This document shows, one piece after another, positions 18,507 through 60,536 of a stretch of DNA of 60,569 nt (the first letter of the stretch is position 1; every line of letters starts with the position of its first letter). The notes under the pieces are model-generated. The model ran no database searches and was not told the origin of the DNA. It saw only the letters and a program-made list of their open reading frames with translations. This DNA comes from Candidatus Kapaibacterium sp. Its GTDB lineage: Bacteria; Bacteroidota; Ignavibacteria; Palsa-1295. The position numbers were made by a program, and so were the translations under genes. The DNA is taken from contig JBBRNY010000003.1 of the NCBI GenBank assembly GCA_038229915.1, forward strand, positions 1-60,569, read 5' to 3'.

Positions 18507-18610
18507 GTATTGAAGTTTTTTCACTTCCAGTTTCAACCTTCCAACTCTTAGCCATATCGCAACCATAATTCAAGAGTGATGTTATACCCATATCATCTCT
18601 TTTGAAATCT

Positions 18611-41405: not shown

Positions 41406-41880
41406 TGAGTGTGAGAATACTTTTATTACGATCTAATATAATGTATAAAAAGTATATTCCTGTACGAAAAGAGGAAGTATCTATATTTGCCTCTTGCGAT
41501 GTAAGTGTGTAAGTGCATTCTAAATGGCGCCCCAAGTAGTCAAATATTTCAATTCTTTCAAGATCTGCAAAGCTTTTATTCAACAAAGTAACTTTACTGT
41601 CTGCTGGATTGGGAAACAGTGAATAAACCCGTTTATTAAACTGATAGTTATAGTCATCAGAATTAAGCCTATTATTAATTAATGAATCAAACAGTATCGT
41701 ACGTTTTTCAACACACACTAATGAGTCTTGGCATCCAAAATCAACAGTATCTATATTGGGCTTCGTCGATTTCTGATTTCTAACGAGATATACTTCTTTA
41801 CTAAAGGTCTGAGAGTATCCGACAGTGCAGACAAAAAAAGACTGAATAAGTAACGGAATAAAAATAATTTTATACCACAT
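41392..41880 (-). CDS. Small secreted protein with a T9SS C-terminal sorting domain (AT-rich operon, gene 3)
   Basis: Signal peptide MWYKIIFIPLLIQSFFVCTVGYSQ. CTD YSLFPNPADSKVTLL...IEIFDYLGRHL...GIYFLYIILD...LTLIIRH. The start lies 2 nt after the upstream stop. Confidence 0.7.
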   Translation of the reverse strand: MWYKIIFIPLLIQSFFVCTVGYSQTFSKEVYLVRNQKSTKPNIDTVDFGCQDSLVCVEKRTILFDSLINNRLNSDDYNYQFNKRVYSLFPNPADSKVTLLNKSFADLERIEIFDYLGRHLECTYTLTSQEANIDTSSFRTGIYFLYIILDRNKSILTLIIRH

Positions 41881-47250: not shown

Positions 47251-48303
47251 ATGCGCGTAGCACTACTGGCAAACATCAAACCTGAAGGTCTTGACATCTG
47301 GAACAGAACTCCGGACGGCAAAGACGACGACACATTTGCCGAATGGGATACGTTCGAAACCATTGATGCTGTTCGCGCGGCGCTCGAGTCGCACCCCGAT
47401 GTTGAGTGTGAGATCGTCGAGGCTTTACCCGAAAAAGCATTGCCACGATTGATGGTACGTGCTTATGACATCGTCTTTAATCTTGCCGAAGGTCTGCGCG
47501 GCGCCGACCGCGAGGCGCAATTCCCGGCGGTGCTCGAAATGCTCGGCATTCCCTATACGGGCTCTGGTCCGTTCACTCTTGCGGCGGCACTTGACAAAGC
47601 ACGCACCAAAGAAATTCTTGCTTATCACGGTGTGCCGGTCGGGAGATTCGCCACGACAACCGATGCAACTACCTCATTAGAAAAACTACTACCCGGGCTT
47701 GAGTATCCTGTGGTCGTGAAGCCGACATCGGAAGGCTCGTCGAAAGGCGTAAAGAATTCTTCGTTTGTAAAAAATGATCAGGAGCTTCGCGCCGAGATAG
47801 CTCGTATTATAAAAGAATACGGGCAACGTGCTATCGTCGAAGAATTTTTATCGGGGAAAGAATTTACGGTTGCTGTGCTGGGCAATGGTGCGGAGGCGCG
47901 AGTACTGCCGATAGTCGAGATCAAACTTGGCGAACTTCCGCCCGAAGCAAACGGTATTTATTCGTATGAAGCGAAGTGGGTCTATGATACGACCGAGCAT
48001 CCGCTCGATATTTTTTCGTGTCCTGCCGATCTGCCCGATGAAGTAACCAAAGATATTTCCGAGACCGTGCTTGCCGGATATAATGCGCTCGGCTGTCGCG
48101 ATTGGTCGCGTATTGATGTTCGTCTTGATAGCAACGGCAAAGCAAACATCATCGAGATCAACCCGCTCCCAGGTATTCTTCCAAACCCCGAAGACAACTC
48201 CTGCTTCCCCAAAGCCGCAAGAACCGCGGGAATGAATTACAACCAAACAATGCTCGCCGTTTTGAGGGCTGGGTGTGGGAGGTATGGGATTGAGTTATTG
48301 TAA
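47251..48303 (+). CDS. ATP-grasp ligase, D-alanine--D-alanine ligase family (paralog 1)
   Basis: MRVALLAN, LEMLGIPYTGSG, YPVVVKPTSEGSSKGV, AIVEEFLSGKEFTVAVLG and IIEINPLPG. Confidence 0.8.
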   Translation: MRVALLANIKPEGLDIWNRTPDGKDDDTFAEWDTFETIDAVRAALESHPDVECEIVEALPEKALPRLMVRAYDIVFNLAEGLRGADREAQFPAVLEMLGIPYTGSGPFTLAAALDKARTKEILAYHGVPVGRFATTTDATTSLEKLLPGLEYPVVVKPTSEGSSKGVKNSSFVKNDQELRAEIARIIKEYGQRAIVEEFLSGKEFTVAVLGNGAEARVLPIVEIKLGELPPEANGIYSYEAKWVYDTTEHPLDIFSCPADLPDEVTKDISETVLAGYNALGCRDWSRIDVRLDSNGKANIIEINPLPGILPNPEDNSCFPKAARTAGMNYNQTMLAVLRAGCGRYGIELL

Positions 48304-49456
48304 ATTTTTCTTAACACTCACGTTTATATTGTTACACGGGTTGTCCTGTCTAACTGGCTATGCATTTGACTTGAAAGCAGGGAAATTAATCCCGAAACAA
48401 CCGATAACTCTCTACCCATTTGATTACAATTACACAGATAGTCTCAAAGGCACAACCTTGAAGCTTGTTGATGCAGTCAAGTATCATGGTGCGTTGCGGA
48501 AGCAGTTTCCTAACGAAAACGTACAGAAGTATATTGACAAGGAAATGACTGTACTATCTATAAAAAAGAAAAAAGACACGAAGGGGGACATATACTTCCT
48601 TACGACATTGAGGATGAACGATAGTAAAGAAAAATTGCAATTGAGAATTCATGAAGATGATTTCTACTGTTTTTTCTATTCCATAACTGATCTCAGTAGA
48701 GTGAAAAAAAAGTGGATTGGGAAAAAGTTATGGACAAACGGAACATATACAAGTTTTTTAAAATCAGATGAGAAAAACATAAACTATATGTTTACGCCTT
48801 TCACTGTTTCTGACATTGCTTTTTCAGAACGTGATCTTCCAACAACAATACAATATGTTTTTATAGGGACGACAGCGGAAGGTGACACCATAAAAATAAA
48901 TTGTTCTCCCTATAAAATTGGTGACCCTGGGATTGGTATTGATTTTGCCTTCGGATTAAACCTGCTCGAGAAAGAGCCAAATGATATTTGGAATACATCG
49001 CCACAAAACATAGATGACTTTCTCGGATTTAACTTGACACTTGGTATGCAAGATGTGATGAAAGCTATTCAAGAAAAAGGGCTGCAACCAAGAGATGTGG
49101 CAATAATGGATTCTATAAGTAAAAATGAATTTAAATTTGGGCTATTTGCTGTCGATAGCTTTAAAATCGCAGGAATCGGTACATTCAATTCGAATTTTTA
49201 TTTTTATGATAGTAAATTTGATTTTATACACATCAATATCGGTTCAGAATTTAAGGGGACTGAGTATAACGATCTCCTTAGAAAATTAACTACACAGTTC
49301 GGGGAAGTTACAGACCACTATACTTTGAATGATCCGTTTTCTCAGAAACAGACGCGGATGGATGTGTGGGCTTTCTACTCCCCGGGGCAGATCCGAACGA
49401 AATCAATCCTTTTGCAAAAAATTAACGGACATATTCGATTGATTATACACGGATAA
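48284..49456 (+). CDS. Hypothetical secreted or lipoprotein, AT-rich insert between the two ATP-grasp genes
   Basis: ATG 48284 gives MGLSYCKFFLTLTFILLHGLSCLTGYA. Its start overlaps the 3' end of the upstream gene. No recognisable family. Confidence 0.55.
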   Translation: MGLSYCKFFLTLTFILLHGLSCLTGYAFDLKAGKLIPKQPITLYPFDYNYTDSLKGTTLKLVDAVKYHGALRKQFPNENVQKYIDKEMTVLSIKKKKDTKGDIYFLTTLRMNDSKEKLQLRIHEDDFYCFFYSITDLSRVKKKWIGKKLWTNGTYTSFLKSDEKNINYMFTPFTVSDIAFSERDLPTTIQYVFIGTTAEGDTIKINCSPYKIGDPGIGIDFAFGLNLLEKEPNDIWNTSPQNIDDFLGFNLTLGMQDVMKAIQEKGLQPRDVAIMDSISKNEFKFGLFAVDSFKIAGIGTFNSNFYFYDSKFDFIHINIGSEFKGTEYNDLLRKLTTQFGEVTDHYTLNDPFSQKQTRMDVWAFYSPGQIRTKSILLQKINGHIRLIIHG

Positions 49457-49533
49457 TTATATTCTTTAACCAAATTCGCTCTTTTGGTGCTTCTTGGCAT
49501 TTCTCCTGAAAAAGATTTGTTAGAAGGCGCGCT

Positions 49534-50592
49534 ATGCGAATTGCACTTATATATAACGAGCCGAAGCACACCGAGCCTGATGACCATTGGTTGTCGAAAT
49601 CGGGTACGGAGCTGTCGCAGACATTCCGCGACGCTTCGGAGTTTGGCGTGCTTGAGGAGATCGAACATATTGCCGCCGCGCTTCGCGAGGGCAGTCATAC
49701 GGTCACGATCTTTTCGGTAGATGATGATGTCGAGCGTCTGGTGAGTTTTCTTGAGAACGACCGCCCCGAGGCGATCTTTAATTTATGCGAGTCGGTGCTT
49801 GGTCGTGCCGATCTCGAAATGTGTATCGCCGGTGTGTTCGATCTTTTTGGTATTCCGTTTACCGGTGCGGGCACGATGGGTCTTGGTATTGCGCTCAACA
49901 AAGCGATCTCGAAAGCGATCTTCGCCGCGAATCATATCCCGACTCCGGCATTCGAAGCTTATGAAGTAGGCGAAACGCCGACTGATGATATTTCGCTGAA
50001 CTATCCGCTGATCGTAAAGCCGCTTCGCGAAGATGCGAGTATTGGTATTGATAATAATTCGATCGTCAGCAATTTTGCCGCATTGTGCGAACGCGTCGAG
50101 TTCGTGCATCTCGAATTCAAACAGCCGGCACTTGTTGAAGAATTTATTGATGGCAGAGAGTTGAATGTTGCCGTGATTGCAACCGACGACGGAAGTTTTA
50201 AGACATTGCCGATCTCTGAGATCACGTTTGATGCGTTGCCGCCCGGCAATCCGCGTATCGTGAGTTACGAAGCGAAGTGGGTCGAGGAATCACCGCTCTA
50301 CAAAACGACCGTCCCGAAATGTCCGGCTGTGCTTGATGAAGAAATTGCGATTCGTGCAAGAGCCATCGCGCTCAAAGCAGCGAACACTGTCGGTCTGCGC
50401 GACTATGGTCGCATCGATATGCGCCTTCGCGATGACGGCGCACTCTTCGTGCTCGAAGCCAACCCCAACCCCGACATCTCGCAAGACGCCGGCTTTATGC
50501 GCGCCTGCTTTACCAGCGGGCTAACGCATTCGCAAGCTATCAATCTCATAGCCTCGCAAGCCCAGAAGAGAATTTTACCCACCAAGAAATAA
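49534..50592 (+). CDS. ATP-grasp ligase, D-alanine--D-alanine ligase family (paralog 2)
   Basis: MRIALIYN, FDLFGIPFTGAG, YPLIVKPLREDASIGI, ALVEEFIDGRELNVAVI and VLEANPNPD. Confidence 0.8.
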   Translation: MRIALIYNEPKHTEPDDHWLSKSGTELSQTFRDASEFGVLEEIEHIAAALREGSHTVTIFSVDDDVERLVSFLENDRPEAIFNLCESVLGRADLEMCIAGVFDLFGIPFTGAGTMGLGIALNKAISKAIFAANHIPTPAFEAYEVGETPTDDISLNYPLIVKPLREDASIGIDNNSIVSNFAALCERVEFVHLEFKQPALVEEFIDGRELNVAVIATDDGSFKTLPISEITFDALPPGNPRIVSYEAKWVEESPLYKTTVPKCPAVLDEEIAIRARAIALKAANTVGLRDYGRIDMRLRDDGALFVLEANPNPDISQDAGFMRACFTSGLTHSQAINLIASQAQKRILPTKK

Positions 50593-50750
50593 TTTGTAAC
50601 GTTTGTTTGCCGTTTGTCTTCCAATGCAATTATTCTTTTAAATTTATTCAGATCAGAAAATAATTTTGCTTTTTGTTTACACTTATCAACAGAAAAATTG
50701 TAAATAAAAAGTTTTTTCATTTTAAATTTGGAAAATTGATTTTAATTTCG

Positions 50751-50758
50751 TATTTTTG
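50751..50758 (+). promoter_or_regulatory. TAnnTTTG-type -7 promoter motif (TATTTTTG) upstream of the GNAT gene
   Basis: TCGTATTTTTGTT lies in a 224-nt AT-rich gap, about 60 nt upstream of the start at 50817/50820. Confidence 0.35.
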
Positions 50759-50816
50759 TTGATAGATGAAGAACAATTCACGAATTATTCTTTGTGTAAT
50801 TGTCTTTTAAACTATT

Positions 50817-51335
50817 GTGATGCACTTTGCATCGAATAGTACAGCGAAAGAACGAATGACGAGAACAGTTGAACAACGTGATCGTAGTGAGATTATTCAG
50901 ATCGTTCGAGCCACCGGTAACTTCAACGAAGAAGAGATCGCGATCGCTGCTGAGCTCATTGACATCTACTTGAACCAACCCGAGCAACGCGACTACTACG
51001 CATTCGTCGAAGACGATGGCGGTAAGGTCGCCGGATTTTTGATCGTAGGACCAACGCCTGCAACGACCGGTACATTTGATATGTATTGGATCGCTTCGCA
51101 TCCGGACTTTTACGGTAAAGGAATTTCGCAAACGCTCGATCGGTTCGCCGAAACATTTGTGAGAGAACGCGGAGGATATTTGCTGATCGCCGAAACGAGC
51201 AGTCAACCATCTTACGAACGTACCCGAGCATTCTATAAGAAGCAAGGTTACGCCGTCGTCTCGCAGATCACCGATTATTACAAACCCGGTGACGACTTAG
51301 TCGTCTTTGGCAAACGAGTAGATACTTTATTATAG
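50817..51335 (+). CDS. GNAT-family N-acetyltransferase (small, 172 aa)
   Basis: VAGFLIVGP...YWIASHPDFYGKGISQTL...RAFYKKQGY is a typical GNAT core. Start ambiguous (GTG 50817, ATG 50820 or ATG 50856). Confidence 0.8.
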   Translation: MMHFASNSTAKERMTRTVEQRDRSEIIQIVRATGNFNEEEIAIAAELIDIYLNQPEQRDYYAFVEDDGGKVAGFLIVGPTPATTGTFDMYWIASHPDFYGKGISQTLDRFAETFVRERGGYLLIAETSSQPSYERTRAFYKKQGYAVVSQITDYYKPGDDLVVFGKRVDTLL

Positions 51336-51447
51336 TATGAAGTGTGAACGCAGATTGTGGGTAAGTCCATAATTGTTCATTCACCTTCATAAATCACCAG
51401 CCGTGTCTTCCGAGATGTCGGGGGCAATGGCAAAATAGAAAGCATAT

Positions 51448-52584
51448 ATGGAATATTGGCAGCAGCTGTTGCGTGACAGCATTGAAACAAAAGAACAGTT
51501 GGTCGAGCGTTTTGGTGTGAAAGCCGAAGTAGCCGATGAACTCAATCAGTTCTTCCAGACACGCATTAACCCTTACTATCTCTCGCTCATTCGCTATAAA
51601 GGCGATCCGATCTGGCTCCAAGCAGTGCCCGACGAACTCGAGCTATCCGATATTGATGCACCCGACGATCCGTTGAATGAAGACGCGATGAGTCCGGTAC
51701 CATCAATAACACATCGTTATCCCGACCGAGTATTGTTTCTCGTGACAAGCCAGTGCTCGATGTACTGCCGTTTTTGTACGCGCAAACGCAAAGTAGGTGA
51801 TTCGTCGAAGATCTCGATGAAGTACATCCAAGAAGGGTTAGACTATATAGCTGCGCATCCTGAAGTTCGCGACGTTATCCTTTCCGGAGGCGATCCGCTG
51901 ACTCTTACTGATTTTATGCTCGAGAAGGTCTTAAAGGGTCTTCGCGAGATCCCGCACGTCGAGATCATCCGTCTCGGCACTAAGATTCCGTGCGTTCTGC
52001 CTCAGCGCGTGACGCCGAAATTGTGTGAGATGATCAAAAAGTATCATCCTATCTACGTAAACACCCATTTTAACCATCCGTGGGAATGTACCCCCGAGGC
52101 AAAACAGGCTTGCGAGATGCTCGCAGATGCCGGTTGCCCGGTCGGAAACCAGATGGTATTAATGAAGGGCGTGAATGACGACGCTATGGTCGTGAAGGAA
52201 TTGATGCAGAAATTGCTCGCAATGCGAGTTCGTCCCTACTATATATATCAAGCTGATATTACTAAGGGCGCGAACCACTTCCGTACCCCTGTTCGGGTCG
52301 GCTTGGAGATCATGGACAAGCTTCGCGGCTGGACCAGCGGCTTGGCAATTCCACACTATGTAATAGATGCCCCCGGTGGCGGCGGCAAGATACCGATCTT
52401 GCCAAATTACGTCGTTAGCCATGACGAAAATACGTGGGTGCTTCGTAATTATAAGTATGACATCTATACATACCCGGATGTCGTCGAGGAGAAACCATCA
52501 CTTCCGGCAAAACGCAAGCCAATTCGTTCGCCAAGAAAGAAGAAGGTTTTTGCTGAAAAAGTATCACGAGATGAGGGAAAATAG
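51448..52584 (+). CDS. kamA: Lysine 2,3-aminomutase (KamA-family radical SAM / PLP enzyme)
   Basis: CSMYCRFCTRK radical-SAM motif, INPYYLSLI, THRYPDRVLFL, RPYYIYQADIT and VIDAPGGGGK (PLP lysine). Confidence 0.9.
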   Translation: MEYWQQLLRDSIETKEQLVERFGVKAEVADELNQFFQTRINPYYLSLIRYKGDPIWLQAVPDELELSDIDAPDDPLNEDAMSPVPSITHRYPDRVLFLVTSQCSMYCRFCTRKRKVGDSSKISMKYIQEGLDYIAAHPEVRDVILSGGDPLTLTDFMLEKVLKGLREIPHVEIIRLGTKIPCVLPQRVTPKLCEMIKKYHPIYVNTHFNHPWECTPEAKQACEMLADAGCPVGNQMVLMKGVNDDAMVVKELMQKLLAMRVRPYYIYQADITKGANHFRTPVRVGLEIMDKLRGWTSGLAIPHYVIDAPGGGGKIPILPNYVVSHDENTWVLRNYKYDIYTYPDVVEEKPSLPAKRKPIRSPRKKKVFAEKVSRDEGK

Positions 52585-52646
52585 GCCGTCTTTTTATCGA
52601 GAAATATGGCTGTAAGTGTAACAATAGTATTCAATACCAACCAAAG

Positions 52647-52675
52647 CGACTCCCACCCCGGAGTCGTTTTTTTTT
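52647..52675 (+). terminator. Rho-independent terminator after kamA
   Basis: CGACTCC-(loop)-GGAGTCG followed by a run of 9 T. Confidence 0.8.
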
Positions 52676-52958
52676 GATTATCTCCCAAGACTAAAAAAAT
52701 AATTAATTCTGAGTAAAGTATTGATTTGCAATCACTTATAGAAATTCTCTCTTTATGTGAGTATTATTTTTTAGACTTTTTCTTGGAAATTTAAAAGTAT
52801 TGTAGTATATTTACACAACTTAATACCCCCATTGGGGGGAAGCCGTGTGTTTTCGATGCCAAAATTATTTATTTTGGCGATGACCATGTGGCGAGCAAAA
52901 TTTTTTTTGAAAAACAAGTCGCATTTACACTAACTTCTTAATAATAGAGGCAATATCT

Positions 52959-55900
52959 ATGAGACGTATTACATACATCGTTTTAGCAGTACTCTTTGTA
53001 GTGCTCGTCAACACTTCATTGTTTGCTCAGGGCGCATCTCGCACATTTGGTGCAGGTCGTTTGCAGCTCGATGACGGCGCGAACAACTTCGTATATATGA
53101 CAACCAAGACTGGTACGCTCGGTATTGATAATACCGGTGCTGTCATTCCTGGCGTGCAAACATTCCCGAGCAATTGCGCTCTTCTCGACCTCTCTTCGGT
53201 AACGAAGGGTTTCTTGCCTCCGAGAATGCTCACTGCGCAGGAAATGAATATCTGCGGCGGTACACCAAACGAAGGTCTCGTTGTGTACAACCTCAGCACT
53301 CATACATTAGACGTGTATAATGGTAGCGGCTGGGCACCTGTCGGTGGCGGCTGGTCTCTCTTCGGTAACTCACTCACCGTTGGTGGTGGTACTGGAGCCG
53401 GACAAAACTACATTGGTACAAACAATGCTACAGATTTTGTGATCGCTACGAATGTCGGAGCTCCTGGCTCTGGTGTTGGTGAGCGTATTCGTGTCACATC
53501 TACTGGCAATGTAAACATTGCTGGTATCAATGGTGTCTCGAACATCACTGCTTCTTCACTCGGTGGTGCGCCTCTTTTAGCTCCGCCTTTGAACTTGCCA
53601 ACTGATGGGCTTATCATTGGTAAGAATGCAGGTGATCTTTATAAATATGATGTTGCGACCGTTGTAGGTGCAGTTGCTTGGTTACGTACCGGCAACACCA
53701 TTCTCGACGTTAACAACAAACTTGGTACGATCAATGACGTTGCTATCAATATCGTTACGAACGATGCTACTCGTGTAACGATTGGCAACTCAGCCGCTGC
53801 AAACGCAGTAACCGTTACGGGTAACGCACTCATTAATGGCAATGCTGCTGTAACTGGCACATTCACTTCGGCAGGTAACTCGACTGTCGGCACAAACGGA
53901 GCTACAACCAATTCATTTGGTAATACTGGCGCTTCAGTCAATGCTATCGGTAACGGCATTGGTGCTCAGAACACTGTGGGTAACGGCGGCGGTGCTACAA
54001 GTAATACTATTGGTACCAATGCCGCATCTAATAACTTTGGCAATGGTGCTACCAATAACAACTTTGGTAATGTCGCAGTAATGAATCAATTCGGTACTGG
54101 CGCAACAACCAACAATATTGGTACTTCGGGTACATCAACGAACACTGTTCTTGGTACAACGAATATCAATACTACTGGCAATAGTGCTACATCTATCGGA
54201 AGCACAGCAACCGGCGGCGCAGTAACGATCGCTACTTCGAATCCTAATCCTCTTACATTGAATGTTGGTGCAACGACGAACAATCTCGTCTTGAACAACA
54301 TCCTTCAGGATAATAATGCTGTTAATTTATTGATGCTCACTGGCGTCAATAGTGGTAATACTCGCACACGTGCAATTGGTACGCTGATCGCAGCAAATGA
54401 AGGTCTTGTACTTGATCTCTCGAACCCAGCTTTGCCAACTGTAAAGCTCGGAAGTTCGGCGCTTGACCCGGTTAATGCTTTCCTTACAAATCGTACCGTC
54501 AGTCTTGGTGCGAATCTCTTGAACTTCAATAATAATGGTAACGTCACGTTTGCTAGCCTTAATGGTGCGAACAACGCGATTAACCTCAACAACTTCAGCG
54601 CAACAGCTAACACAAACATTGGCTTCGACGCAGTTGGAAATAACGTAGCTATCCAAGGTCGTACAACGAATGTTGGTACTTTGAGCGCTGCTCAGGCTAT
54701 CAATATCGGTACTGGCGGTGGTAATACCACTATCGGTCTTGCTCCTGGAAGCACGAACAACATTAATGGTACGAACAACACGATGACAGCAACAGGTACT
54801 AACTTGTTGACTGCACCGACCAACACGATCAACGGTACTACACAGAATAATGTGACTGCACCGACGAACGTGATCACTGGTAACACGTTGAACAACATCA
54901 CTTCAACCACAGAAAACCGTGTTTCAGGACCTACCAATATCAATACAACAACAGCAAACACAACTACCATCGGTAACGGTGGCGCAGTTGCTTCAAACAC
55001 TGTTGTCAATGTTGGTACAGCTGGTGGTAATTTGACTCTCAATAACATCGTTAACGACAACACCATCACCAACATCCTCGTGCAGACGGGTGCCGCTGGT
55101 TCTGGTAACGTTCGTTATCGCACACTTGCATCGCTCATCGCAGCTAATCAAGGTTTGATCCTTGATAACAGTACGCCAACTCCGACCGTAAGACTCGGTA
55201 GCGCAGCTGGTGACCCAGTCAATCCGTTCTTAGTAAATCGCACTGTTTCTCTCGGTGGTCAGTCATTGTTCATCAATGATGGCAACTCGGGCACACAGTT
55301 GGCTCAGTTCAACGGCGCTGGTGATGTGATCAACTTGAACACATTGACAACAGGTACAACAACGATCGGTAGCTCAACAGCAACCGCAACAAATATCAAC
55401 GGACCTACCAATATCAATAACGCTGTTAACTCGAATACCCAGATCAACACTGGCGGTTCTTCGGGAACAGTAACAATTGGTAACGCCGCTGCTGGTACCG
55501 TTCAGCTCACTTCGGGTACTGCAGTAAATGCAAACTCACCGAACAACACGTTGACTGCAACAACAACAAACTTGTTGACTGCACCAACTAACACTTTAAC
55601 TGGTGCTACGACCAATAACGTTAATGCACCGACCAATAACATGGGTGCTACATTGTTGAACAACATCAACAGTGCTACGGAAAACCGTTTAACGGGACCT
55701 ACCAATATCAACACTACTGCGAACAACTTGACAACGATCGGTCAGAATGCTGGTACAGCTTCTACGACTGTTATCAATGTCGGTACAGCAGGTGGAAACT
55801 TGACGTTGAACAACATCGTCCGTGATAACTTTTCTATCAGCTTGCTCACGACTACCGGTATCGGTTCTCCTGCATCTGGTAACGTTCGTTATCGCCAGCT

Positions 55901-58900
55901 TGCAACGCTCATCGCTGCTGACCAAGGTTTGATCCTTGATAACAGCACTGCAACGCCGACCGTAAGACTCGGTAGCGCAGGCGGTGACCCAGTCAATCCA
56001 TTCGCTGCTAATCGCACCGTTTCTTTGGCTAATAACCAATTGATCTTTAATGATAACGCTGCTGTCGGATTTGTTACTCTTAACGGTAATACCGATGCAG
56101 TCAATATCAACACCACAACTGCTGGTACGACAACGATCGGTAGCTCAACCGCTACTGCTACAAATATCAACGGACCGACCAACATCAATAACGCTGTTAA
56201 CTCGAACACTCAGATCAACACTGGTGGTAGCTCGGGTTCAGTAACTGTTGGTACGACATCTGCTGGTACCGTTGCTCTTACTTCAGGTACAGCCGTTAAC
56301 GTCAATATTCTTGGACCATCAGCGACCAACATCAACACTGGTACTGCTACTGGCGACGTTAATCTCGGTAACACTGGCTTAGGACCGAACATCAATATGT
56401 CGGTTAACGCTGCTCGTAATATCACGATGCAGAATATCCAAACCGATATTGCTCCTACACAATGGTTGACATTGAATGCTGCTAACCAGGTTAAAGTAAC
56501 TTCGCTCGCGAACATCGCAGAGCAGGGCGTAAGCTACCAGCTTGAAGCAAGCGGTACTCGCTTCCGTCTCGGCGGTATCACTTCTACTCAGGTGCCGTTC
56601 ACTGTTAATGATCGTTTCATTAATATGGACGCTCGCAACTTGTTCTTCACACGTAATGGTGGTGCGAACAACGTTATGCAGCTCACTGGTGGTGCAACTG
56701 GCGGCGTAGATATTACTGCTCCGACGAACATCAATACTGCAAATAATCTTAACACAGCTATCGGTACTGTTGCTGGTGCTGGCGGATCAACGACCATCAA
56801 CGGTCGTCCGCTCAACCTCAATAACGGCGGCGGCGCTAATGGCGTAACCAACATCGGTAATACCGTTGGTGGTATCACCGTCACTGGTCGTTCGACATAC
56901 AGTGCTTCTAGCCCGATCAACCTCACCGGAACTGACGGTACCTCTAACCAGGTAATGCGTTCGAACGGTCTTGGTGCTACTCCGAGCTGGTTCACACTCA
57001 CAACCGATGCTACTTTGCTCGGTGATGGTGTCGGAACTTCATTCGGTATCGACCTCAACCACTCAAATACCTGGAACGTCTCGCAGACATTTGGCGACAA
57101 CGTAGGTATTGATAACTTCACTGTCAACACAGGTGTCGGCGGCGGAACTGCAACGATCAATCTTCAGGGCGGCGGAAATCTCGTCCTCAATAACATCGCT
57201 AACGACAACACAACGACCAACATCTTGACTATCAGTGGTGCTGGTTCGGGTAACGTTCGTTATCGCACACTTGCTTCGTTGATCAATGCCGATCAAGGTA
57301 CACAGCTTGTTACGATCGCTGGAGTTCCTACCGTATTGCTCGGTGGTGCTACTAACGTGATCAACCCATTGACAAGCACACGTTTTGTGAACTTGACCAA
57401 TCAGGTCTTGAACTTCACAAACGCGGCTGGTGCAAATAATCTTGTCCAACTCGACGGTAATGCAGGCTCTGTAGCTGTTAATGGTACACTTACCTCAACA
57501 GGCAACACGACTCTTGCAACCAACGCTGCTACGACCAACACATTTGGTAATAACGCTGCAACGTCTAACTCGATCGGTACTTCAGCGGTCACCAATAACT
57601 TTGGTAACAGCGCTGTTGCTTCAACAACAACCAATAACATCGGTAATTCGAATGCTGCTGGTGGTACGACCATCAACAATATCGGTCGCCCAGTTGCTGG
57701 CGGTTTCTCAACTACCAATATCGGTGATATTGCTGGCGCAGGTTCTGCTATCAATGTTCTTGGTGTTACAAGTATCAACACAACCTTTGCGGCTACTACC
57801 ACGATCGGCAATACAGGTGCCGGTGGTAATGTCACGATTGCAAGTGCTAATACTATCGCACTCAATGGTACAACCAACATCAACACTGGTGCCTACAAAT
57901 TGACATCTGTCGGTGATGGTGCTACTGCTAACCAACAGCTTCGCGTTAATGGCGTTGCTGACGCTATTGTCGGTAACACACTCGGTGCTAACCCAACCGT
58001 ATGGGATCTCGTCGTCACTGGCGATCAGGTCACAACTGGTATCGCGAAATTCGGCGGTTCACTTTGGATCGACGGCGTAAGCGCTACTCACCAGATCAAT
58101 GCTAACGCTCCGTTGAACATCGTTACTACGGGCGGTAACTTGGGCTTGACGGCTTCGGGTTCGATCAACTTCAATTCGAACATCGGTACAAGCATCGTTC
58201 CGAGCGTTAACAACTCGTTCGATCTTGGTTCTGCTGCTAATCGTTGGAACAACTTGTTCGTAACGACTATCAACTTGCCACTCGGTACTTATCCTTCAGG
58301 ATCAGTCTTGTTTGCTAACGCTGCAGGTCAGATCGCTGCTGATAATCCAAGCTTCTTCTATAGCAACACACTCAAACGCCTCGGTATCGGAAACAACGCT
58401 CCGACTCAGGCTCTTGACGTAACTGGTAATGGTAACTTCAGCGGTTCACTCGCAGTTGGTACTACAGTGACTGCTGGTAGTTCAGTTGGCGCAGGTTCAT
58501 CAGTAACTGCTGGAACATTCATGACGGCAGGAACAAGCATTGCTGCAGGAACAACTATCACAGCTGGAACAGGAATCACATCTAACTCTGGTAACATCGT
58601 TGCAACAGCTGGTCAGGTAAACGCAGGAACAAGTATGACTGCTGGTACCACGATCAACGCAGGTGGTGCGATCACAGCTGGATCAACACTCGCAGCAGGA
58701 ACTTCAATCACTGCTGGTACATCGATTGCAGCTGGAACGACACTTACCGCAGGTACAGGTTTAACTGTAACCTCAGGTGGTGCAACGATCAACGGTTTCG
58801 CAGCTTCAGCAGATGCATTCCTCGTTACTGTTCCAACGGCCGCTGGTGGTGATCTTCACACACGTACCGTTGCTTCACTTCCATTTATTGGTGGTAGTGG

Positions 58901-60536
58901 TACACTGAATACTATCGCAATGTTTACACCGAACGGTACAACAATTGGTAATTCACCATTGACTGTATCAGGTGGTGTTAATGTCGCTGGCTCAGGTTCA
59001 TTGACAGCAGGTACATCACTTGCCGCAGGAACAACCGTAGCCGCTGGTACATCTATCGGTGCTGGAACATTTATCACTGCAGGCACAACGATCGCTGCTG
59101 GAACAGGTATCACATCTGCTTCAGGTAACATCGTTGCAACAGCTGGTCAGGTAAACGCAGGAACAAGTATGACTGCTGGTACCACGATCAACGCAGGTGG
59201 TGCGATCACAGCTGGATCAACACTCGCAGCCGGAACAACGGTTACTGCAGGTACATCAATCTCAGCAGGAACAACAATCACCGCTGGTACAGGTTTGACT
59301 GTTACCGCAGGTGGTGCGAACATCAACGGATTAGCACAGAATAATGCTCTCGTTGACCTCGTCGTTGCTCCTTCAACAACAGGTGGCGTACTTGCCACTC
59401 GCTCTGTTGCTTCACTCGGTTTCATTACTGGAGCTGGTACACTTAACACGATCCCAATGTTCACACCAACAGGTACTTCACTCGGTAACTCACCGTTGAC
59501 AGTCGTAGGTGTTAATGTCACTGGTTCTGGTTCATTGAACGCAGGTACATCAGTTGGCGCAGGTACATCTGTAACTGCTGGAACATTCATCACTGCAGGC
59601 ACAACGATTGCTGCTGGAACAGGTATCACATCTGCTTCAGGTAACATCGTTGCAACAGCTGGTCAAGTAAATGCAGGTACAAGCGTATCGGCTGCTACTA
59701 CGGTCGCTGCTGGAACTTCAATCACTGCTGGTACATCGATTGCAGCAGGAACAACACTCACCGCAGGTACAGGCTTAACGGTCACTGCAGGTGGTGCGAA
59801 CATCAACGGCTTAGTGCAGAATAATGCACTCGTTGACCTCGTAGTTGCTCCTTCAACAACAGGTGGTGCACTTGCAACTCGCTCTGTTGCTTCACTTGGT
59901 ATCTTATCAGGTAGTGGTACATTGAACACCATTGCAATGTTCACTCCATCAGGTACACAAGTTGGTAATTCACCATTGACAGTATCTGGTGCAGATGTAT
60001 CTGGATCTGGCAAATTGACTGCTGCAACTTCAGTTAACGCGGGTACTACTGTAAACGCAGCAACTACAGTCGCTGCTGGTACAAATATCACTGCTGTTAC
60101 AACTATCGCTGCGGGTACAGCGATCACTGCTGGTACAACAGTCGGTGCTGTAACTACAGTAACTGGCGGTACAGGAGTTATCGCAACTACTGGCGCTATT
60201 AACGCAACTGGTGGTACGATCCAAACCAATAGTGTTAACCGCATTGACAATAACGGTGTTGTTCATGCAACAGGTTTCACAGCTTCTTACACAGCACAGG
60301 GTGCTAACTACGGAGCTCTTGTTACTGATTACTTCATCCGCTCAACTGCTGGTGGAATTACGATCACACTTCCTGCTGCTACAACAGGTCAGATCATCGT
60401 AGTGAAGAACTCAGCTGCTGCTGCTGTTAGCGTAACAGCCGCAACGATCGACGGCGCTGCTCCTGTAGCGAATAACCTCAATGCTGGTGTCACACGTACC
60501 TACGTCTTTGATGGCGCAGGTTGGTGGAGCTACTAA
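52959..60536 (+). CDS. Giant (2525 aa) secreted repetitive fibre/adhesin-like protein
   Basis: One uninterrupted 7578-nt ORF. Signal peptide MRRITYIVLAVLFVVLVNTSLFAQ. Asn/Thr/Gly/Ala-rich with several classes of tandem modules. Tail-fibre-like segment DLGSAANRWNNLFV. Distinct C-terminal ~95-aa domain, and no T9SS CTD. Confidence 0.9.
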   Translation: MRRITYIVLAVLFVVLVNTSLFAQGASRTFGAGRLQLDDGANNFVYMTTKTGTLGIDNTGAVIPGVQTFPSNCALLDLSSVTKGFLPPRMLTAQEMNICGGTPNEGLVVYNLSTHTLDVYNGSGWAPVGGGWSLFGNSLTVGGGTGAGQNYIGTNNATDFVIATNVGAPGSGVGERIRVTSTGNVNIAGINGVSNITASSLGGAPLLAPPLNLPTDGLIIGKNAGDLYKYDVATVVGAVAWLRTGNTILDVNNKLGTINDVAINIVTNDATRVTIGNSAAANAVTVTGNALINGNAAVTGTFTSAGNSTVGTNGATTNSFGNTGASVNAIGNGIGAQNTVGNGGGATSNTIGTNAASNNFGNGATNNNFGNVAVMNQFGTGATTNNIGTSGTSTNTVLGTTNINTTGNSATSIGSTATGGAVTIATSNPNPLTLNVGATTNNLVLNNILQDNNAVNLLMLTGVNSGNTRTRAIGTLIAANEGLVLDLSNPALPTVKLGSSALDPVNAFLTNRTVSLGANLLNFNNNGNVTFASLNGANNAINLNNFSATANTNIGFDAVGNNVAIQGRTTNVGTLSAAQAINIGTGGGNTTIGLAPGSTNNINGTNNTMTATGTNLLTAPTNTINGTTQNNVTAPTNVITGNTLNNITSTTENRVSGPTNINTTTANTTTIGNGGAVASNTVVNVGTAGGNLTLNNIVNDNTITNILVQTGAAGSGNVRYRTLASLIAANQGLILDNSTPTPTVRLGSAAGDPVNPFLVNRTVSLGGQSLFINDGNSGTQLAQFNGAGDVINLNTLTTGTTTIGSSTATATNINGPTNINNAVNSNTQINTGGSSGTVTIGNAAAGTVQLTSGTAVNANSPNNTLTATTTNLLTAPTNTLTGATTNNVNAPTNNMGATLLNNINSATENRLTGPTNINTTANNLTTIGQNAGTASTTVINVGTAGGNLTLNNIVRDNFSISLLTTTGIGSPASGNVRYRQLATLIAADQGLILDNSTATPTVRLGSAGGDPVNPFAANRTVSLANNQLIFNDNAAVGFVTLNGNTDAVNINTTTAGTTTIGSSTATATNINGPTNINNAVNSNTQINTGGSSGSVTVGTTSAGTVALTSGTAVNVNILGPSATNINTGTATGDVNLGNTGLGPNINMSVNAARNITMQNIQTDIAPTQWLTLNAANQVKVTSLANIAEQGVSYQLEASGTRFRLGGITSTQVPFTVNDRFINMDARNLFFTRNGGANNVMQLTGGATGGVDITAPTNINTANNLNTAIGTVAGAGGSTTINGRPLNLNNGGGANGVTNIGNTVGGITVTGRSTYSASSPINLTGTDGTSNQVMRSNGLGATPSWFTLTTDATLLGDGVGTSFGIDLNHSNTWNVSQTFGDNVGIDNFTVNTGVGGGTATINLQGGGNLVLNNIANDNTTTNILTISGAGSGNVRYRTLASLINADQGTQLVTIAGVPTVLLGGATNVINPLTSTRFVNLTNQVLNFTNAAGANNLVQLDGNAGSVAVNGTLTSTGNTTLATNAATTNTFGNNAATSNSIGTSAVTNNFGNSAVASTTTNNIGNSNAAGGTTINNIGRPVAGGFSTTNIGDIAGAGSAINVLGVTSINTTFAATTTIGNTGAGGNVTIASANTIALNGTTNINTGAYKLTSVGDGATANQQLRVNGVADAIVGNTLGANPTVWDLVVTGDQVTTGIAKFGGSLWIDGVSATHQINANAPLNIVTTGGNLGLTASGSINFNSNIGTSIVPSVNNSFDLGSAANRWNNLFVTTINLPLGTYPSGSVLFANAAGQIAADNPSFFYSNTLKRLGIGNNAPTQALDVTGNGNFSGSLAVGTTVTAGSSVGAGSSVTAGTFMTAGTSIAAGTTITAGTGITSNSGNIVATAGQVNAGTSMTAGTTINAGGAITAGSTLAAGTSITAGTSIAAGTTLTAGTGLTVTSGGATINGFAASADAFLVTVPTAAGGDLHTRTVASLPFIGGSGTLNTIAMFTPNGTTIGNSPLTVSGGVNVAGSGSLTAGTSLAAGTTVAAGTSIGAGTFITAGTTIAAGTGITSASGNIVATAGQVNAGTSMTAGTTINAGGAITAGSTLAAGTTVTAGTSISAGTTITAGTGLTVTAGGANINGLAQNNALVDLVVAPSTTGGVLATRSVASLGFITGAGTLNTIPMFTPTGTSLGNSPLTVVGVNVTGSGSLNAGTSVGAGTSVTAGTFITAGTTIAAGTGITSASGNIVATAGQVNAGTSVSAATTVAAGTSITAGTSIAAGTTLTAGTGLTVTAGGANINGLVQNNALVDLVVAPSTTGGALATRSVASLGILSGSGTLNTIAMFTPSGTQVGNSPLTVSGADVSGSGKLTAATSVNAGTTVNAATTVAAGTNITAVTTIAAGTAITAGTTVGAVTTVTGGTGVIATTGAINATGGTIQTNSVNRIDNNGVVHATGFTASYTAQGANYGALVTDYFIRSTAGGITITLPAATTGQIIVVKNSAAAAVSVTAATIDGAAPVANNLNAGVTRTYVFDGAGWWSY
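54300..57420 (+). repeat. Four copies of a ~250-aa protein module inside the giant gene
   Basis: The core GGNLxLNNIxxDN...GSGNVRYRxLAxLIxAxQGLxLD...PTVxLGS...DPVNPF..NRTVSL recurs around nt 54355, 55104, 55878 and 57249 (spacings 749, 774 and 1371 nt). Confidence 0.85.
58425..60200 (+). repeat. 3.5 tandem copies of a 160-188-aa module built from AGTxxx hexapeptide runs inside the giant gene
   Basis: Modules start near 58425, 58988, 59522 and 60002. A 107-nt stretch at 58590-58696 is identical to 59124-59230. Confidence 0.9.

What the first reader, a model, noticed from the sequence alone, without database searches (positions are those of the whole stretch)
52959..60536. 2525-aa modular fibre-like surface protein with no recognisable anchoring or T9SS signal
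This single 7.6-kb ORF has the following architecture:
- a signal peptide;
- a ~100-aa head containing GFLPPRMLTAQEMN...GLVVYN...LDVYNGSGW;
- a long Asn/Thr/Gly/Ala-rich stretch of short NxxG/NTxG repeats resembling trimeric-adhesin head repeats;
- four ~250-aa modules with the conserved core GGNLxLNNI..DN...GSGNVRYR.LA.LI.A.QGL.LD...PTV.LGS..DPVNPF..NRTVSL;
- a central segment reminiscent of phage tail-fibre proteins (GTDGTSNQVMRSNGLGATPSW and DLGSAANRWNNLFV);
- 3.5 modules built from strict hexapeptide AGTxxx runs, each ending in ATRSVASLG..G.GTLNTI.MFTP.GT..GNSPLTV;
- a distinct ~95-aa C-terminal domain (ITITLPAATTGQIIVVKN...IDGAAP...TRTYVFDGAGWWSY).

Other exported proteins in this window carry a T9SS CTD, but this one does not. 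No LPXTG, autotransporter barrel or phage genes are visible. How it is exported, anchored and assembled, and what it binds, are all open questions. The window ends 33 nt after the stop codon, so downstream partners cannot be seen.
Basis: partly seen in the sequence, partly recalled or inferred. Interest (0 to 1): 0.7.

Follow-up and report, generated by a model that had tools for sequence, protein, structure and literature searches.

The report
Phage-fibre-like giant surface protein, Kapaibacterium
This 2525-residue gene of an uncultured Kapaibacterium (Bacteroidota) most likely encodes an exported surface fibre assembled from phage tail-fibre-type parts, resembling the fibre family of predatory Bdellovibrio, and how it crosses the outer membrane is still unknown.

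Summary
The exception is the stalk module, which occurs five times, not four.

- **Origin.** It is not a prophage gene. In Candidatus Kapaibacterium genomes the orthologue always follows the same housekeeping genes. It is followed by a two-component system or by paralogous fibre genes, never by phage genes.
- **N-terminal head.** It belongs to Pfam PF26696 (PTL_trimer).
- **C-terminal domain.** The last 100 residues fold, at pLDDT 92.7, into the beta-sandwich of phage T4 gp9/gp10, CBA120 tailspike adaptors and depolymerase C-termini.
- **AGTxxx runs.** They have a strict period of 6 and pass the Pfam Hexapep threshold.
- **Stalk module.** The ~115-aa module is rare: 123 of 1.84 billion representative proteins.
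- **Anchors tested and absent.** There is no T9SS C-terminal domain, although three other ORFs in the window have one. There is also no autotransporter barrel and no S74 chaperone.
- **Family pattern.** Relatives share the signal peptide (ending AQ) and a short N-terminal motif, but carry at least three different C-terminal domains.

Best reading: a Sec-exported, probably trimeric fibre adhesin, anchored at its N-terminus, with a swappable C-terminal tip. The closest known kind is the Bdellovibrio MAT fibres. The export route and the ligand remain open. It is a new variant of a known kind, of moderate interest.

The parts
52643..52670 (+). Terminator-like hairpin after the upstream lysine-2,3-aminomutase-like gene. 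It suggests the fibre gene has its own transcription start in the 374-nt spacer.
   Evidence: 11-bp stem followed by a T run; sequence seen
52959..53027 (+). Sec signal peptide, aa 1-23, with predicted cleavage ...SLFA|Q. Gln at +1 fits the Bacteroidetes 'Q-rule'.
   Evidence: By inspection. A23 and Q24 are invariant in 15 family members. Q-rule: PMC5837995, PMC10653852.
53028..53153 (+). N-terminal motif, aa 24-65 (RTFGAGRLQLDDG...FVYMT...TLGID). It is predicted as three short beta-strands and is shared, weakly, by paralogues that have other C-termini. This is the candidate cell-proximal attachment element.
   Evidence: (strands at positions 10-14, 20-24 and 29-33 of the modelled fragment, which starts at aa 25; low pLDDT)
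53154..53348 (+). Head domain, aa 66-130 = Pfam PF26696 (PTL_trimer). It contains the protein's only two Cys (C73, C99), which appear and disappear together in relatives and so probably form a disulfide.
   Evidence: all 120 best hits of the head profile carry PF26696
53349..54248 (+). Conserved proximal stalk (aa 131-290, WSLFGN..., AWLRTGN...), then an N/T/G/A-rich stretch (aa 291-430) without a strict period.
54249..54593 (+). Stalk module copy 1 (aa 431-545).
   Evidence: E 9.5e-46
54996..55343 (+). Stalk module copy 2 (aa 680-795).
   Evidence: E 8e-53
55764..56114 (+). Stalk module copy 3 (aa 936-1052).
   Evidence: E 6e-52
56382..56738 (+). Stalk module copy 4, a divergent subtype (aa 1142-1260; ...PTQWLTLNAANQVKV...EQGVSY...RFRLGG...NDRFINM).
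   Evidence: E 4.8e-34; this subtype is the common one in homologues
56928..56990 (+). Motif GTDGTSNQVMRSNGLGATPSW (aa 1324-1344). A similar motif is repeated many times in orthologue P0008.
57144..57485 (+). Stalk module copy 5 (aa 1396-1509).
   Evidence: E 5.9e-44
57876..58442 (+). Tail-fibre-like connector (aa 1640-1828) with DLGSAANRWNNLFV (aa 1755-1768) and RLGIGNNAPTQALDVTG (aa 1807-1823).
   Evidence: (one weak hit to a phage putative tail fibre, E 1e-3); related motifs in P0009 and P0013
58443..60233 (+). Three full repeats plus one partial repeat (aa 1829-2425). Each is a period-6 AGTxxx run of roughly 70-110 aa (interrupted by a short SNSGNIVAT-type insert) followed by a ~60-aa connector (...ATRSVASLG..GTLNTI.MFTP.GT.GNSPLTV).
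   Evidence: (Hexapep 34.5 bits against a cut-off of 27)
60234..60533 (+). C-terminal beta-sandwich domain (aa 2426-2525) with the phage gp9/gp10 / tailspike-adaptor / depolymerase C-terminal fold. This is the candidate distal tip.
   Evidence: (pLDDT 92.7)

Best explanation
The gene encodes a chromosomal, Sec-exported, probably homotrimeric cell-surface fibre (an adhesin or recognition fibre) of a Candidatus Kapaibacterium species. It is assembled from phage tail-fibre-type building blocks.

Proposed sequence of events:
1. The signal peptide is cut at A23|Q24 in the periplasm. This is inferred from the sequence and its conservation.
2. The N-terminal ~40-aa motif plus the disulfide-containing PTL_trimer head nucleate trimerisation. 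They hold the fibre at the cell surface through a partner that is still unknown. This is inferred, because the N-terminal part is the constant part of the family.
3. The stalk spaces the ends apart. It comprises five copies of a rare ~115-aa module, N/T/G-rich linkers and 3.5 hexapeptide beta-helix modules. Its length changes easily by repeat gain and loss: orthologues range from 210 to 2525 aa.
4. The C-terminal gp9/gp10-like beta-sandwich is the distal, exchangeable tip that contacts the ligand, which could be a glycan or a protein on another cell or surface. This is inferred, because C-termini are the variable part in relatives, as in phage fibres and in Bdellovibrio MAT fibres.

Passage across the outer membrane does not use a recognisable T9SS C-terminal domain, autotransporter barrel or TPS domain. 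It remains unexplained.
For: **A real, conserved cellular gene.**
- The same position after PTA_PTB, HEAT-cyclophilin, two Ddl-like ATP-grasp genes, GNAT and a LAM-like radical-SAM gene is seen in the contigs of P0002 (L001), P0004 (L002/L003), P0005 and P0010. The gene is also found directly after the LAM-like gene in L004-L007, L011, L012, L014 and L017.
- GC content matches the flanks.
- No phage genes lie upstream in the window or downstream in the orthologous loci.

**Exported.**
- The signal peptide has an invariant A|Q in 15 family members. The Q-rule literature is PMC5837995.
- The only two Cys are paired in the head and co-vary.

**Phage-fibre parts.**
- The head is PF26696 PTL_trimer. 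The domain is also present at the C-terminus of a cyanophage protein and in 735-kb phages. It is repeated in an S74-terminated 'tail fiber domain-containing protein' (P0013).
- The C-terminal model (pLDDT 92.7) matches only phage structural proteins at the top of the PDB list: Solidus gp83 at E 4.4e-5 and TMq 0.69, KP1 baseplate, CBA120 TSP4 and T4 gp9. It also matches 295 viral models at E<=1e-3.
- Profile against PDB sequences gives E 0.0027. Two sequence relatives pass the PF07880 cut-off.

**Constant N-terminus, variable C-terminus.**
- At least three C-terminal types sit on proteins that share the stalk module.
- Paralogue arrays have the same N-motif but different tips, including K1-lyase_C.
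- A 210-aa orthologue retains only the signal peptide, the N-motif and the C-terminal domain.

**Analogue.** Bdellovibrio MAT fibres have a signal peptide, then a conserved ~130-aa beta-rich N-domain, then a trimeric fibre, then variable tips. They are surface located (PMC10769870).
Against: - Trimerisation was not tested. Only monomer predictions were possible, and the head model was poor (pLDDT 57.6).
- Orientation is an inference. In T4 gp10 and CBA120 TSP4 the gp9/gp10-type domain is a docking module rather than a receptor-binding tip, and in a cyanophage the PTL-like domain is C-terminal. The reverse orientation is therefore possible.
- No outer-membrane export or anchoring mechanism is identified.
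- There are no expression or localisation data.
- Conservation of the N-motif across paralogues is weak (33 % mean column identity, including the signal peptide).
- Homology of the N-domain to the MAT N-domain was not tested.
Confidence: 0.55

Rival explanations
1. It is the same kind of fibre but in the opposite orientation. The C-terminal gp9/gp10-like domain docks the fibre onto a cell-surface partner, as gp10 and TSP4 adaptor domains dock onto other proteins. The N-terminal PTL_trimer head is then the distal ligand-binding knob, as in trimeric autotransporter adhesins.
For: - The best-characterised relatives of the C-terminal fold are docking or adaptor modules: T4 gp9/gp10 and the CBA120 TSP4 N-terminus.
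- The PTL-like domain sits at the extreme C-terminus, the usual tip position, of Leptolyngbya phage Lbo-JY46 gp257.
- Short PTL_trimer proteins combine it with collagen repeats or Fib_succ_major domains.
Against: - C-terminal domains are the variable element among proteins sharing the stalk module, and among tandem paralogues. The signal-proximal motif is the shared one.
- The closest structural match (Solidus gp83) has the domain at its C-terminus, away from the particle-binding N-terminus.
- A co-translationally exported N-terminus as the distal end would need a C-terminal anchor, and none is recognisable.
Confidence: 0.2
2. It is T9SS cargo (for example a SprB-like gliding or adhesion filament) whose C-terminal beta-sandwich is an unrecognised third type of T9SS sorting domain.
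For: - The organism clearly uses T9SS: three ORFs in the window have Por_Secre_tail.
- The C-terminal domain is a ~100-aa beta-sandwich at the very C-terminus, the position and size of a T9SS C-terminal domain.
- In Ignavibacteria relatives, a small FlgD_ig/Por_Secre_tail protein lies directly upstream of the giant genes.
Against: - There is no hit to type-A or type-B C-terminal domain models, even at permissive E-values.
- No T9SS C-terminal domain structure appears among the Foldseek PDB matches, whereas the eight best and the ninth are phage proteins (rank 8 is the E. coli StcE beta-sandwich). Known T9SS C-terminal domains are 3+4 seven-strand Ig-like sandwiches (PMC11285876), while the model has about ten strands.
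- Relatives with the same stalk carry unrelated C-termini, which is unexpected for a sorting signal.
- The same domain is abundant as small stand-alone, phage-like proteins.
Confidence: 0.1
3. It is an S-layer or sheath-type structural envelope protein, as NCBI's name for orthologue P0002 ('S-layer family protein') suggests, rather than a discrete adhesin fibre.
For: - The name given by a source.
- The protein is very large, Thr/Asn/Gly/Ala-rich, acid-poor and exported.
- The chromosomal position is conserved.
Against: - The name is an automatic annotation. No NCBIfam or Pfam S-layer model matches.
- Orthologue length varies from 210 to 2525 aa and the C-termini vary. This fits variable fibres, not a lattice-forming unit.
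- The end domains are of phage-fibre type.
Confidence: 0.07
4. It is a tail fibre of a prophage, tailocin or extracellular contractile injection system.
For: - The end domains are phage-type.
- There is a weak hit of aa 1721-1795 to a Roseobacter phage putative tail fibre.
Against: - It has a Sec signal peptide, which particle-assembled fibres lack.
- The flanks are housekeeping genes in the window and in all orthologous loci. No phage or contractile-injection genes lie within 10 kb.
- No PHROG family matches.
- GC content equals the flanks.
Confidence: 0.03

Closest known systems
Bdellovibrio bacteriovorus MAT (mosaic adhesive trimer) fibre family, e.g. Bd2133, Bd3182 (PMC10769870)
   Same: - Chromosomal genes, not prophage genes.
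- A signal peptide is followed directly by a conserved beta-rich N-terminal domain shared by all paralogues.
- A long repetitive fibre uses phage tail-fibre-like elements.
- The C-terminal tip domains are diverse and exchangeable.
- The family is multi-gene.
- The surface-anchoring partner is unknown in both cases.
   Different: - Homology of the N-domains was not tested. Ours is PF26696 PTL_trimer plus a short motif.
- There is no S74 chaperone-protease here.
- The stalk uses a rare ~115-aa module and strict hexapeptide runs.
- The protein is 2-3 times longer.
- The host is a T9SS-bearing Bacteroidota lineage with no known predatory lifestyle.
- No structural or localisation data exist.
Phage gp9/gp10-type beta-sandwich domains: T4 gp9/gp10 (PF07880, PDB 1QEX), CBA120 TSP4 N-terminal domains (7REJ/7RFO/7RFV), Acinetobacter phage Solidus gp83 depolymerase C-terminus (24QJ)
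   Same: - The fold of the last 100 residues matches: Foldseek E 4.4e-5 to 1.1e-2, TMq 0.49-0.69.
- The shared sequence pattern is DY.I......V.LP.A...G....IK......V.V.......IDG.......G......DG..W.
- The profile of the domain aligns to these chains.
   Different: - The window sequence itself does not reach the PF07880 threshold.
- Here the domain ends a Sec-exported cellular protein instead of being part of a virion.
- Its role (docking or binding) is unknown.
Pfam PF26696 (PTL_trimer) proteins of Bacteroidota and 'tail fiber domain-containing proteins' ending in Peptidase_S74 (e.g. P0013)
   Same: The head motif is shared: KGFLPPRMT.AQ....P.EGL.VYN......L.VYNG..W. Orthologues and all 120 best hits of the head profile carry PF26696.
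   Different: - Most PF26696 proteins found here are short (about 90-305 aa), or they repeat the domain.
- Here there is a single copy directly after a signal peptide, at the start of a 2500-aa stalk.
- The meaning of the family name and any experimental basis for it could not be checked, because the model is absent from the local Pfam copy.
Trimeric autotransporter adhesins (YadA, BadA) and T9SS filament adhesins (SprB)
   Same: They are also giant, repetitive, low-complexity surface fibres of Gram-negative bacteria. Some relatives (P0006, P0010) contain YadA-head-like NTAVG... repeats.
   Different: There is no YadA-type beta-barrel anchor, no Hep_Hag/HIM repeats and no type-A or type-B T9SS C-terminal domain.

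Membership tests
Pfam PF26696 (PTL_trimer), N-terminal head | Sequence match to the family model | tested here: met
   The test is indirect, because the model is not in the local Pfam copy and the window protein's own precomputed annotation is hidden.
- Orthologues P0002-P0006, P0008, P0009, P0011, P0012 and P0014 carry PF26696, for most of them as their only Pfam domain.
- A profile of the head region (A2) retrieves 313 proteins, and all 120 listed carry PF26696. They include 89-107-aa proteins that are little more than this domain.
Pfam PF26696 (PTL_trimer), N-terminal head | Trimeric assembly, as implied by the family name | not testable with these tools
   Only monomer prediction is offered. 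The monomer model of aa 25-189 is poor (pLDDT 57.6) and gave no significant fold match.
Phage gp9/gp10-type domain (Pfam PF07880 T4_gp9_10_N), C-terminal domain | Sequence match above the Pfam gathering score | tested here: not met
   - No PF07880 hit for the last 108 or 275 aa.
- Two small sequence relatives of the domain do pass: P0076 at 25.7 bits and P0128 at 25.1 bits, against a cut-off of 25.
- The domain profile aligns to gp10 and TSP4 chains only at E 0.11-0.19, and to the Solidus depolymerase at E 0.0027.
Phage gp9/gp10-type domain (Pfam PF07880 T4_gp9_10_N), C-terminal domain | Same fold | tested here: met
   - AF2 model pLDDT 92.7, pTM 0.81.
- Foldseek against PDB: 24QJ E 4.4e-5 TMq 0.69, 9F4A E 4.2e-4, 7REJ E 3.5e-3, 1QEX E 1.1e-2.
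- 295 viral models at E<=1e-3, including 'Baseplate structural protein Gp9/Gp10'.
Bdellovibrio MAT fibre family | A signal peptide followed directly by a conserved beta-rich N-terminal domain common to the paralogues | tested here: met
   (shared signal peptide ending AQ plus N-motif in 15 proteins; head conserved at 45-72 % identity in orthologues). The MAT feature is taken from PMC10769870.
Bdellovibrio MAT fibre family | The N-terminal domain is homologous to the MAT N-terminal domain | not tested
The pattern-limited genome scan with the head profile returned no Bdellovibrio locus, but it is not sensitive enough to count as a test.
Bdellovibrio MAT fibre family | Variable C-terminal tip domains on a common fibre scaffold, with or without an S74 chaperone | tested here: met
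   At least three C-terminal types sit on proteins that share the stalk module. Tandem paralogues carry gp9/10-like, K1-lyase_C or Gly-rich ends. There is no S74 in the window protein.
Bdellovibrio MAT fibre family | Trimeric fibre located on the cell surface | not testable with these tools
   This needs multimer prediction, electron microscopy or fractionation.
T9SS cargo | C-terminal sorting domain of type A (PF18962/TIGR04183) or type B (TIGR04131) | tested here: not met
   - No hit in Pfam at E<=10 on the last 108 aa, or at E<=1 on the last 275 aa.
- No NCBIfam hit at E<=1.
- Positive controls in the same window pass.
- No T9SS C-terminal domain structure appears among the listed fold matches.
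Trimeric autotransporter adhesin (type Vc) | C-terminal YadA-like beta-barrel anchor, and Hep_Hag/HIM head or neck repeats | tested here: not met
   No such Pfam or NCBIfam hits on the whole protein or on ten overlapping pieces. The C-terminus is a soluble beta-sandwich.
Phage or prophage tail fibre | Encoded among virion structural genes, with no secretion signal | tested here: not met
   Housekeeping neighbours and conserved synteny. A signal peptide is present. There are no PHROG matches.
Hexapeptide-repeat (left-handed beta-helix) proteins, Pfam PF00132 | Tandem hexapeptide repeats matching the model above threshold | tested here: met
   aa 2001-2280: E 1.4e-8, 34.5 bits against a cut-off of 27, and period 6. 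This concerns the repeat type only. The acyltransferase families are not matched (LpxD model 26 bits against a cut-off of 207).
S-layer protein (the name NCBI gives to orthologue P0002) | A match to a curated S-layer model, or lattice formation | tested here: not met
   No NCBIfam or Pfam S-layer or SLH model matches. Lattice formation is not testable here.

The most novel reading that the evidence does not exclude
Kapaibacterium and related Ignavibacteria-like lineages maintain a repertoire of phage-derived recognition fibres with swappable tips, analogous to MAT fibres. These reach the cell surface by a route that depends on the shared N-terminal motif and is independent of the T9SS C-terminal domain. 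That would be a new outer-membrane export or anchoring pathway in Bacteroidota. The fibres would mediate specific cell-cell contact with prey, host algae or cyanobacteria, or kin in these uncultured bacteria.
Probability: 0.15. Interest if true: 0.7.

Novelty: new variant of a known kind. Interest (0 to 1): 0.4.

Why it matters
If the reading is right, domesticated phage tail-fibre modules on Sec-exported cellular fibres are not peculiar to predatory Bdellovibrio. The same design principle is a constant N-terminus, a length-variable stalk and exchangeable tips. It would also operate in an uncultured, widespread Bacteroidota lineage.

The finding also gives a concrete example of large surface proteins in a T9SS-bearing organism that lack any known T9SS signal. 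This makes the question of what else carries proteins across the Bacteroidota outer membrane addressable with a defined cargo family.

In practical terms:
- It supplies a rare new stalk domain (about 123 representative proteins worldwide).
- It gives a confident model for a very common phage 'tip/adaptor' sandwich.
- It warns that composition filters hide domain hits in such proteins.

Tried and rejected
- **Whole-protein scans.** Pfam, NCBIfam, PHROGs and PDB sequence searches gave nothing. This is partly an artefact. HMMER's bias filter suppressed even the self-derived C-terminal profile on the full-length ORF until --max was used. I therefore rescanned in pieces.
- **Exact-sequence lookup.** It found no other contig carrying this protein, so the window's own downstream DNA cannot be recovered. 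The nearest relative, L004, also breaks inside the gene.
- **Prophage origin.** Rejected on synteny, the signal peptide, GC content and the absence of PHROG hits.
- **Head structure.** The AF2 monomer model of the head was too poor to use (pLDDT 57.6), and its fold search gave nothing below E 0.47.
- **PDB sequence searches of other regions.** The tail-fibre-like connector, a hexapeptide module, the central region and the stalk-module profile gave nothing significant. The best hit was the LbH protein CcmN at E 0.17.
- **tblastn of the C-terminal domain against 50,697 phage genomes.** No match, although structure and profile searches link it to phages.
- **Hypervariability.** I considered that the gene is hypervariable relative to its flanks. 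Against L004 the flanks are 82-87 % and the gene 67-78 % nt identical, so it diverges only moderately faster. I do not claim diversifying selection.
- **Literature.** Searches for PF26696/PTL_trimer and for Kapabacteria biology gave nothing useful on function.


Full report
**1. The observation**

The window contains one uninterrupted ORF from ATG 52959 to the stop at 60534-60536, 2525 codons. The window is a complete contig of 60,569 nt that ends 33 nt after the stop.

The product is 57 % Thr+Gly+Asn+Ala, almost free of charged residues, and has only two cysteines.

Piecewise BLASTP of the protein against itself shows internal repeats far beyond chance. Stalk modules 2 and 3 share 62-74 % identity (E as low as 3e-55). 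The C-terminal modules share 61-78 %.

Two corrections are needed:
- An HMM built from the module cores finds five copies of a ~115-aa core, not four: aa 431-545, 680-795, 936-1052, 1142-1260 and 1396-1509. The fourth is a divergent subtype, and it is the commoner subtype in relatives.
- The N/T/G-rich 'NxxG' stretches have no strict periodicity and match no adhesin-head model.

The AGTxxx runs do have a strict period of 6. Of 43 spacings, 33 equal 6, and autocorrelation peaks at lags 6, 12 and 18. One piece passes the Pfam Hexapep threshold, 34.5 bits against 27.

**2. Organism and genomic setting**

The upstream lysine-2,3-aminomutase-like protein is 94-96 % identical to those of several Candidatus Kapaibacterium MAGs and 99 % identical to that of JANYDV010000131.1. 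Three other ORFs in the window carry a bona fide T9SS type-A C-terminal domain (Por_Secre_tail above cut-off). The organism is therefore a T9SS-bearing member of the Bacteroidota/Ignavibacteria group.

In the contigs of P0002, P0004, P0005 and P0010, the orthologous gene follows the same block: PTA_PTB, HEAT-cyclophilin, two Ddl-like ATP-grasp genes, GNAT and LAM-like radical SAM. Further Kapaibacterium loci also have it directly after the LAM-like gene. More distant Ignavibacteria loci have the LAM-like gene but no fibre gene there.

GC content equals that of the flanks. A terminator-like hairpin separates the gene from the upstream gene.

The window's own downstream DNA is unobtainable, but orthologous loci show what follows:
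- An OmpR-type two-component system and HPr kinase follow in L005 and L006, and a two-component system follows in the P0005 and P0010 contigs.
- A tandem array of four to seven further fibre-like genes follows in L001 and L002/L003.

Phage structural genes never follow.

**3. The end domains can be placed**

*Head.* Orthologues carry Pfam PF26696, named PTL_trimer in the tool output, for most of them as their only annotated domain. A profile of aa 25-189 retrieves 313 proteins. All 120 listed carry PF26696, including proteins of 89-107 aa that are hardly more than this domain. They come mostly from Bacteroidota (Chitinophagales, Saprospiraceae, Bacteroidales), sometimes fused to collagen repeats or Fib_succ_major domains.

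The same motif is repeated about a dozen times in an alphaproteobacterial 'tail fiber domain-containing protein' that ends in a Peptidase_S74 chaperone (P0013). It also occurs at the C-terminus of Leptolyngbya phage Lbo-JY46 gp257 and in 735-kb uncultured phages.

The two cysteines lie in this head and are present or absent together in relatives, which suggests a disulfide and hence an extracytoplasmic location. The local Pfam copy lacks PF26696, so membership is shown indirectly. I could not read the family's description.

*C-terminal domain.* A 12-sequence profile of the last ~100 aa finds 495 relatives. The best are small (90-175 aa) stand-alone proteins, two of which pass PF07880 (T4_gp9_10_N).

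With a 128-sequence alignment, AlphaFold2 gives a confident model (pLDDT 92.7, pTM 0.81). In the PDB its nine best matches are all phage structural proteins except StcE:
- Acinetobacter phage Solidus gp83 depolymerase C-terminus (E 4.4e-5, TMq 0.69)
- A Klebsiella phage baseplate chain
- 6O38
- A Pseudomonas phage capsid spike
- The CBA120 TSP4 N-terminal adaptor region
- T4 gp9

Against predicted viral structures there are 295 matches at E<=1e-3, including tail-fibre-like, collagen-repeat and gp9/gp10 proteins. The profile also aligns directly to the depolymerase (E 0.0027), to gp10 and to TSP4 chains.

No T9SS C-terminal domain appears among the matches. Known T9SS C-terminal domains are seven-strand Ig-like sandwiches (PMC11285876), whereas the model has about ten strands.

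**4. The stalk**

The ~115-aa module has no Pfam, PHROG or PDB relative. A profile search of 1.84 billion representative proteins finds only 123 carriers, 94 of them at E<=1e-10, with up to 17 copies per protein. It is a rare, lineage-restricted repeat.

The hexapeptide runs resemble left-handed beta-helix repeats. Whether each chain forms its own LbH or three chains intertwine cannot be decided here.

The 'tail-fibre' motifs of the central segment have only weak outside support: one tblastn hit at E 1e-3 to a Roseobacter phage putative tail fibre. Similar motifs recur in relatives.

Orthologue length ranges from 210 aa to 1360, 1473, 1687, 1819, more than 2361 and 2525 aa. The 210-aa form, in L011, has only the signal peptide, the N-motif and the C-terminal domain. 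The stalk is therefore expendable and plastic while the ends persist.

**5. Family logic**

Proteins sharing the stalk module fall into at least three C-terminal types:
- The gp9/10-like type, as here.
- A type ending in '...INYMIINP'.
- A type ending in '...SYIKLTR..'.

The tandem paralogues in L001 and L002 add K1-lyase_C and Gly-rich ends. In contrast, 15 members align at the N-terminus. They share a signal peptide ending invariably in A|Q, then a short strand motif (h.h.DG ... Y.h.LP). The AQ junction fits the Bacteroidetes Q-rule for signal-peptidase-I substrates (PMC5837995, PMC10653852), although that rule was not reported for the whole FCB group.

A constant N-terminus with variable C-termini is the architecture of phage tail fibres. 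It is also the architecture of the Bdellovibrio MAT family: signal peptide, conserved ~130-aa beta-rich N-domain, trimeric fibre, diverse tips, surface located, anchoring partner unknown (PMC10769870).

**6. Mechanism proposed**

- *Shown.* The sequence has a Sec-type signal peptide that is conserved across the family. The gene is chromosomal, conserved and non-phage. The end domains are of phage-fibre type. There is no T9SS, TAA or S74 feature.
- *Inferred.* The signal peptide is cleaved at A23|Q24. The head and N-motif trimerise and are retained at the cell surface. The stalk acts as a spacer of adjustable length. The C-terminal sandwich is the distal, exchangeable binding tip.
- *Unknown.* The outer-membrane passage, the anchoring partner and the ligand.

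The main alternative keeps the same object but reverses its polarity, because gp9/gp10-type domains are docking modules in T4 and CBA120. Less likely alternatives are:
- A cryptic T9SS signal.
- An S-layer role. This is NCBI's automatic name for P0002, and no model supports it.
- A tailocin or contractile-injection fibre.

**7. Novelty and verdict**

The finding is genuine and largely correctly described, but it is less of an orphan than it looked. It is a member of a small, previously undescribed family (as far as the searched literature shows) that re-uses known phage-fibre end domains. It follows the design of a known kind of cellular fibre, the MAT family.

I rate it a new variant of a known kind and of moderate interest (0.4). 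What would raise it is evidence that the shared N-terminal motif defines a new surface-export or anchoring route in a T9SS organism, or that the tips mediate specific cell-cell recognition.

Noticed in passing
window 47251-52584 (+): This is a conserved block: two D-Ala-D-Ala-ligase-like ATP-grasp genes, a GNAT acetyltransferase (50817-51335) and a lysine-2,3-aminomutase-like radical-SAM gene (51448-52584). It is syntenic across Kapaibacterium contigs, and the LAM-like gene has relatives in Ignavibacteria. From general knowledge, LAM + GNAT is the ablA/ablB pair that makes the osmolyte N-epsilon-acetyl-beta-lysine. The two ATP-grasp ligases might extend it to a peptide-like product.
   Followed up: partly
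window 48275-49456 (+): A 393-aa ORF with a hydrophobic N-terminus and no Pfam match lies between the two ATP-grasp genes. It is absent from the nearest relative L004 (an alignment gap of 1.2 kb) and from the called genes of L001 and L002.
   Followed up: partly
L011 11518-12147 (Kapaibacterium JBBQGG010000012.1): At the orthologous position there is a 210-aa 'mini-fibre'. It has the signal peptide, the N-terminal motif and the gp9/10-like C-terminal domain, with no head core and no stalk. It could be a natural deletion or a collapsed assembly.
   Followed up: partly
L001 15508-25064; L002 15834-25268: Tandem arrays of 4-7 smaller fibre-like genes (250-761 aa) lie downstream of the orthologue. 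Each has a signal peptide ending AQ and the N-motif. Their C-termini differ: gp9/10-like, three consecutive K1-lyase_C genes, or a Gly-rich domain.
   Followed up: partly
L085 3171-3722; L086 9423-9977: In Ignavibacteria-type relatives the giant genes form tandem arrays after tsf-pyrH-frr-queC. They are immediately preceded by a ~184-aa protein with FlgD_ig and a (weak) Por_Secre_tail domain. This is a possible T9SS-delivered partner. It is unrelated to the window's small C-terminal-domain-bearing ORF 41392-41880.
   Followed up: partly
window 18602-20605 (+), 25065-26465 (-), 41392-41880 (-): Three ORFs carry a T9SS type-A C-terminal sorting domain above the Pfam cut-off. They confirm that the organism secretes by T9SS.
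   Followed up: yes
window 52959-60536 (method note): HMMER's composition-bias filter hid a true domain hit: the protein's own C-terminal profile was not reported on the full-length ORF until --max was used. Null results from whole-protein scans of such low-complexity giants are therefore unreliable.
   Followed up: yes
L084 5041-6183 (Leptolyngbya phage Lbo-JY46 gp257); LR756501.1 395052-395210: A PTL_trimer-like domain (41 % identical to aa 70-125 of the fibre) forms the extreme C-terminus of a 380-aa cyanophage protein. It also occurs in 735-kb uncultured phages, so the head domain circulates between phages and bacteria.
   Followed up: partly
window 52826-52839: A short perfect hairpin, CCCCC-ATT-GGGGG(G), lies in the 374-nt spacer upstream of the fibre gene. 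Its function is unknown.
   Followed up: no
L005 (CAYOJJ010000011.1) and L078 (CALRIY020000025.1): Contigs with clear Kapaibacterium or Bacteroidota synteny are deposited under the names 'uncultured Alphaproteobacteria bacterium' and 'Synechococcus sp. UW140'. These are probably binning or labelling errors in the public records.
   Followed up: no
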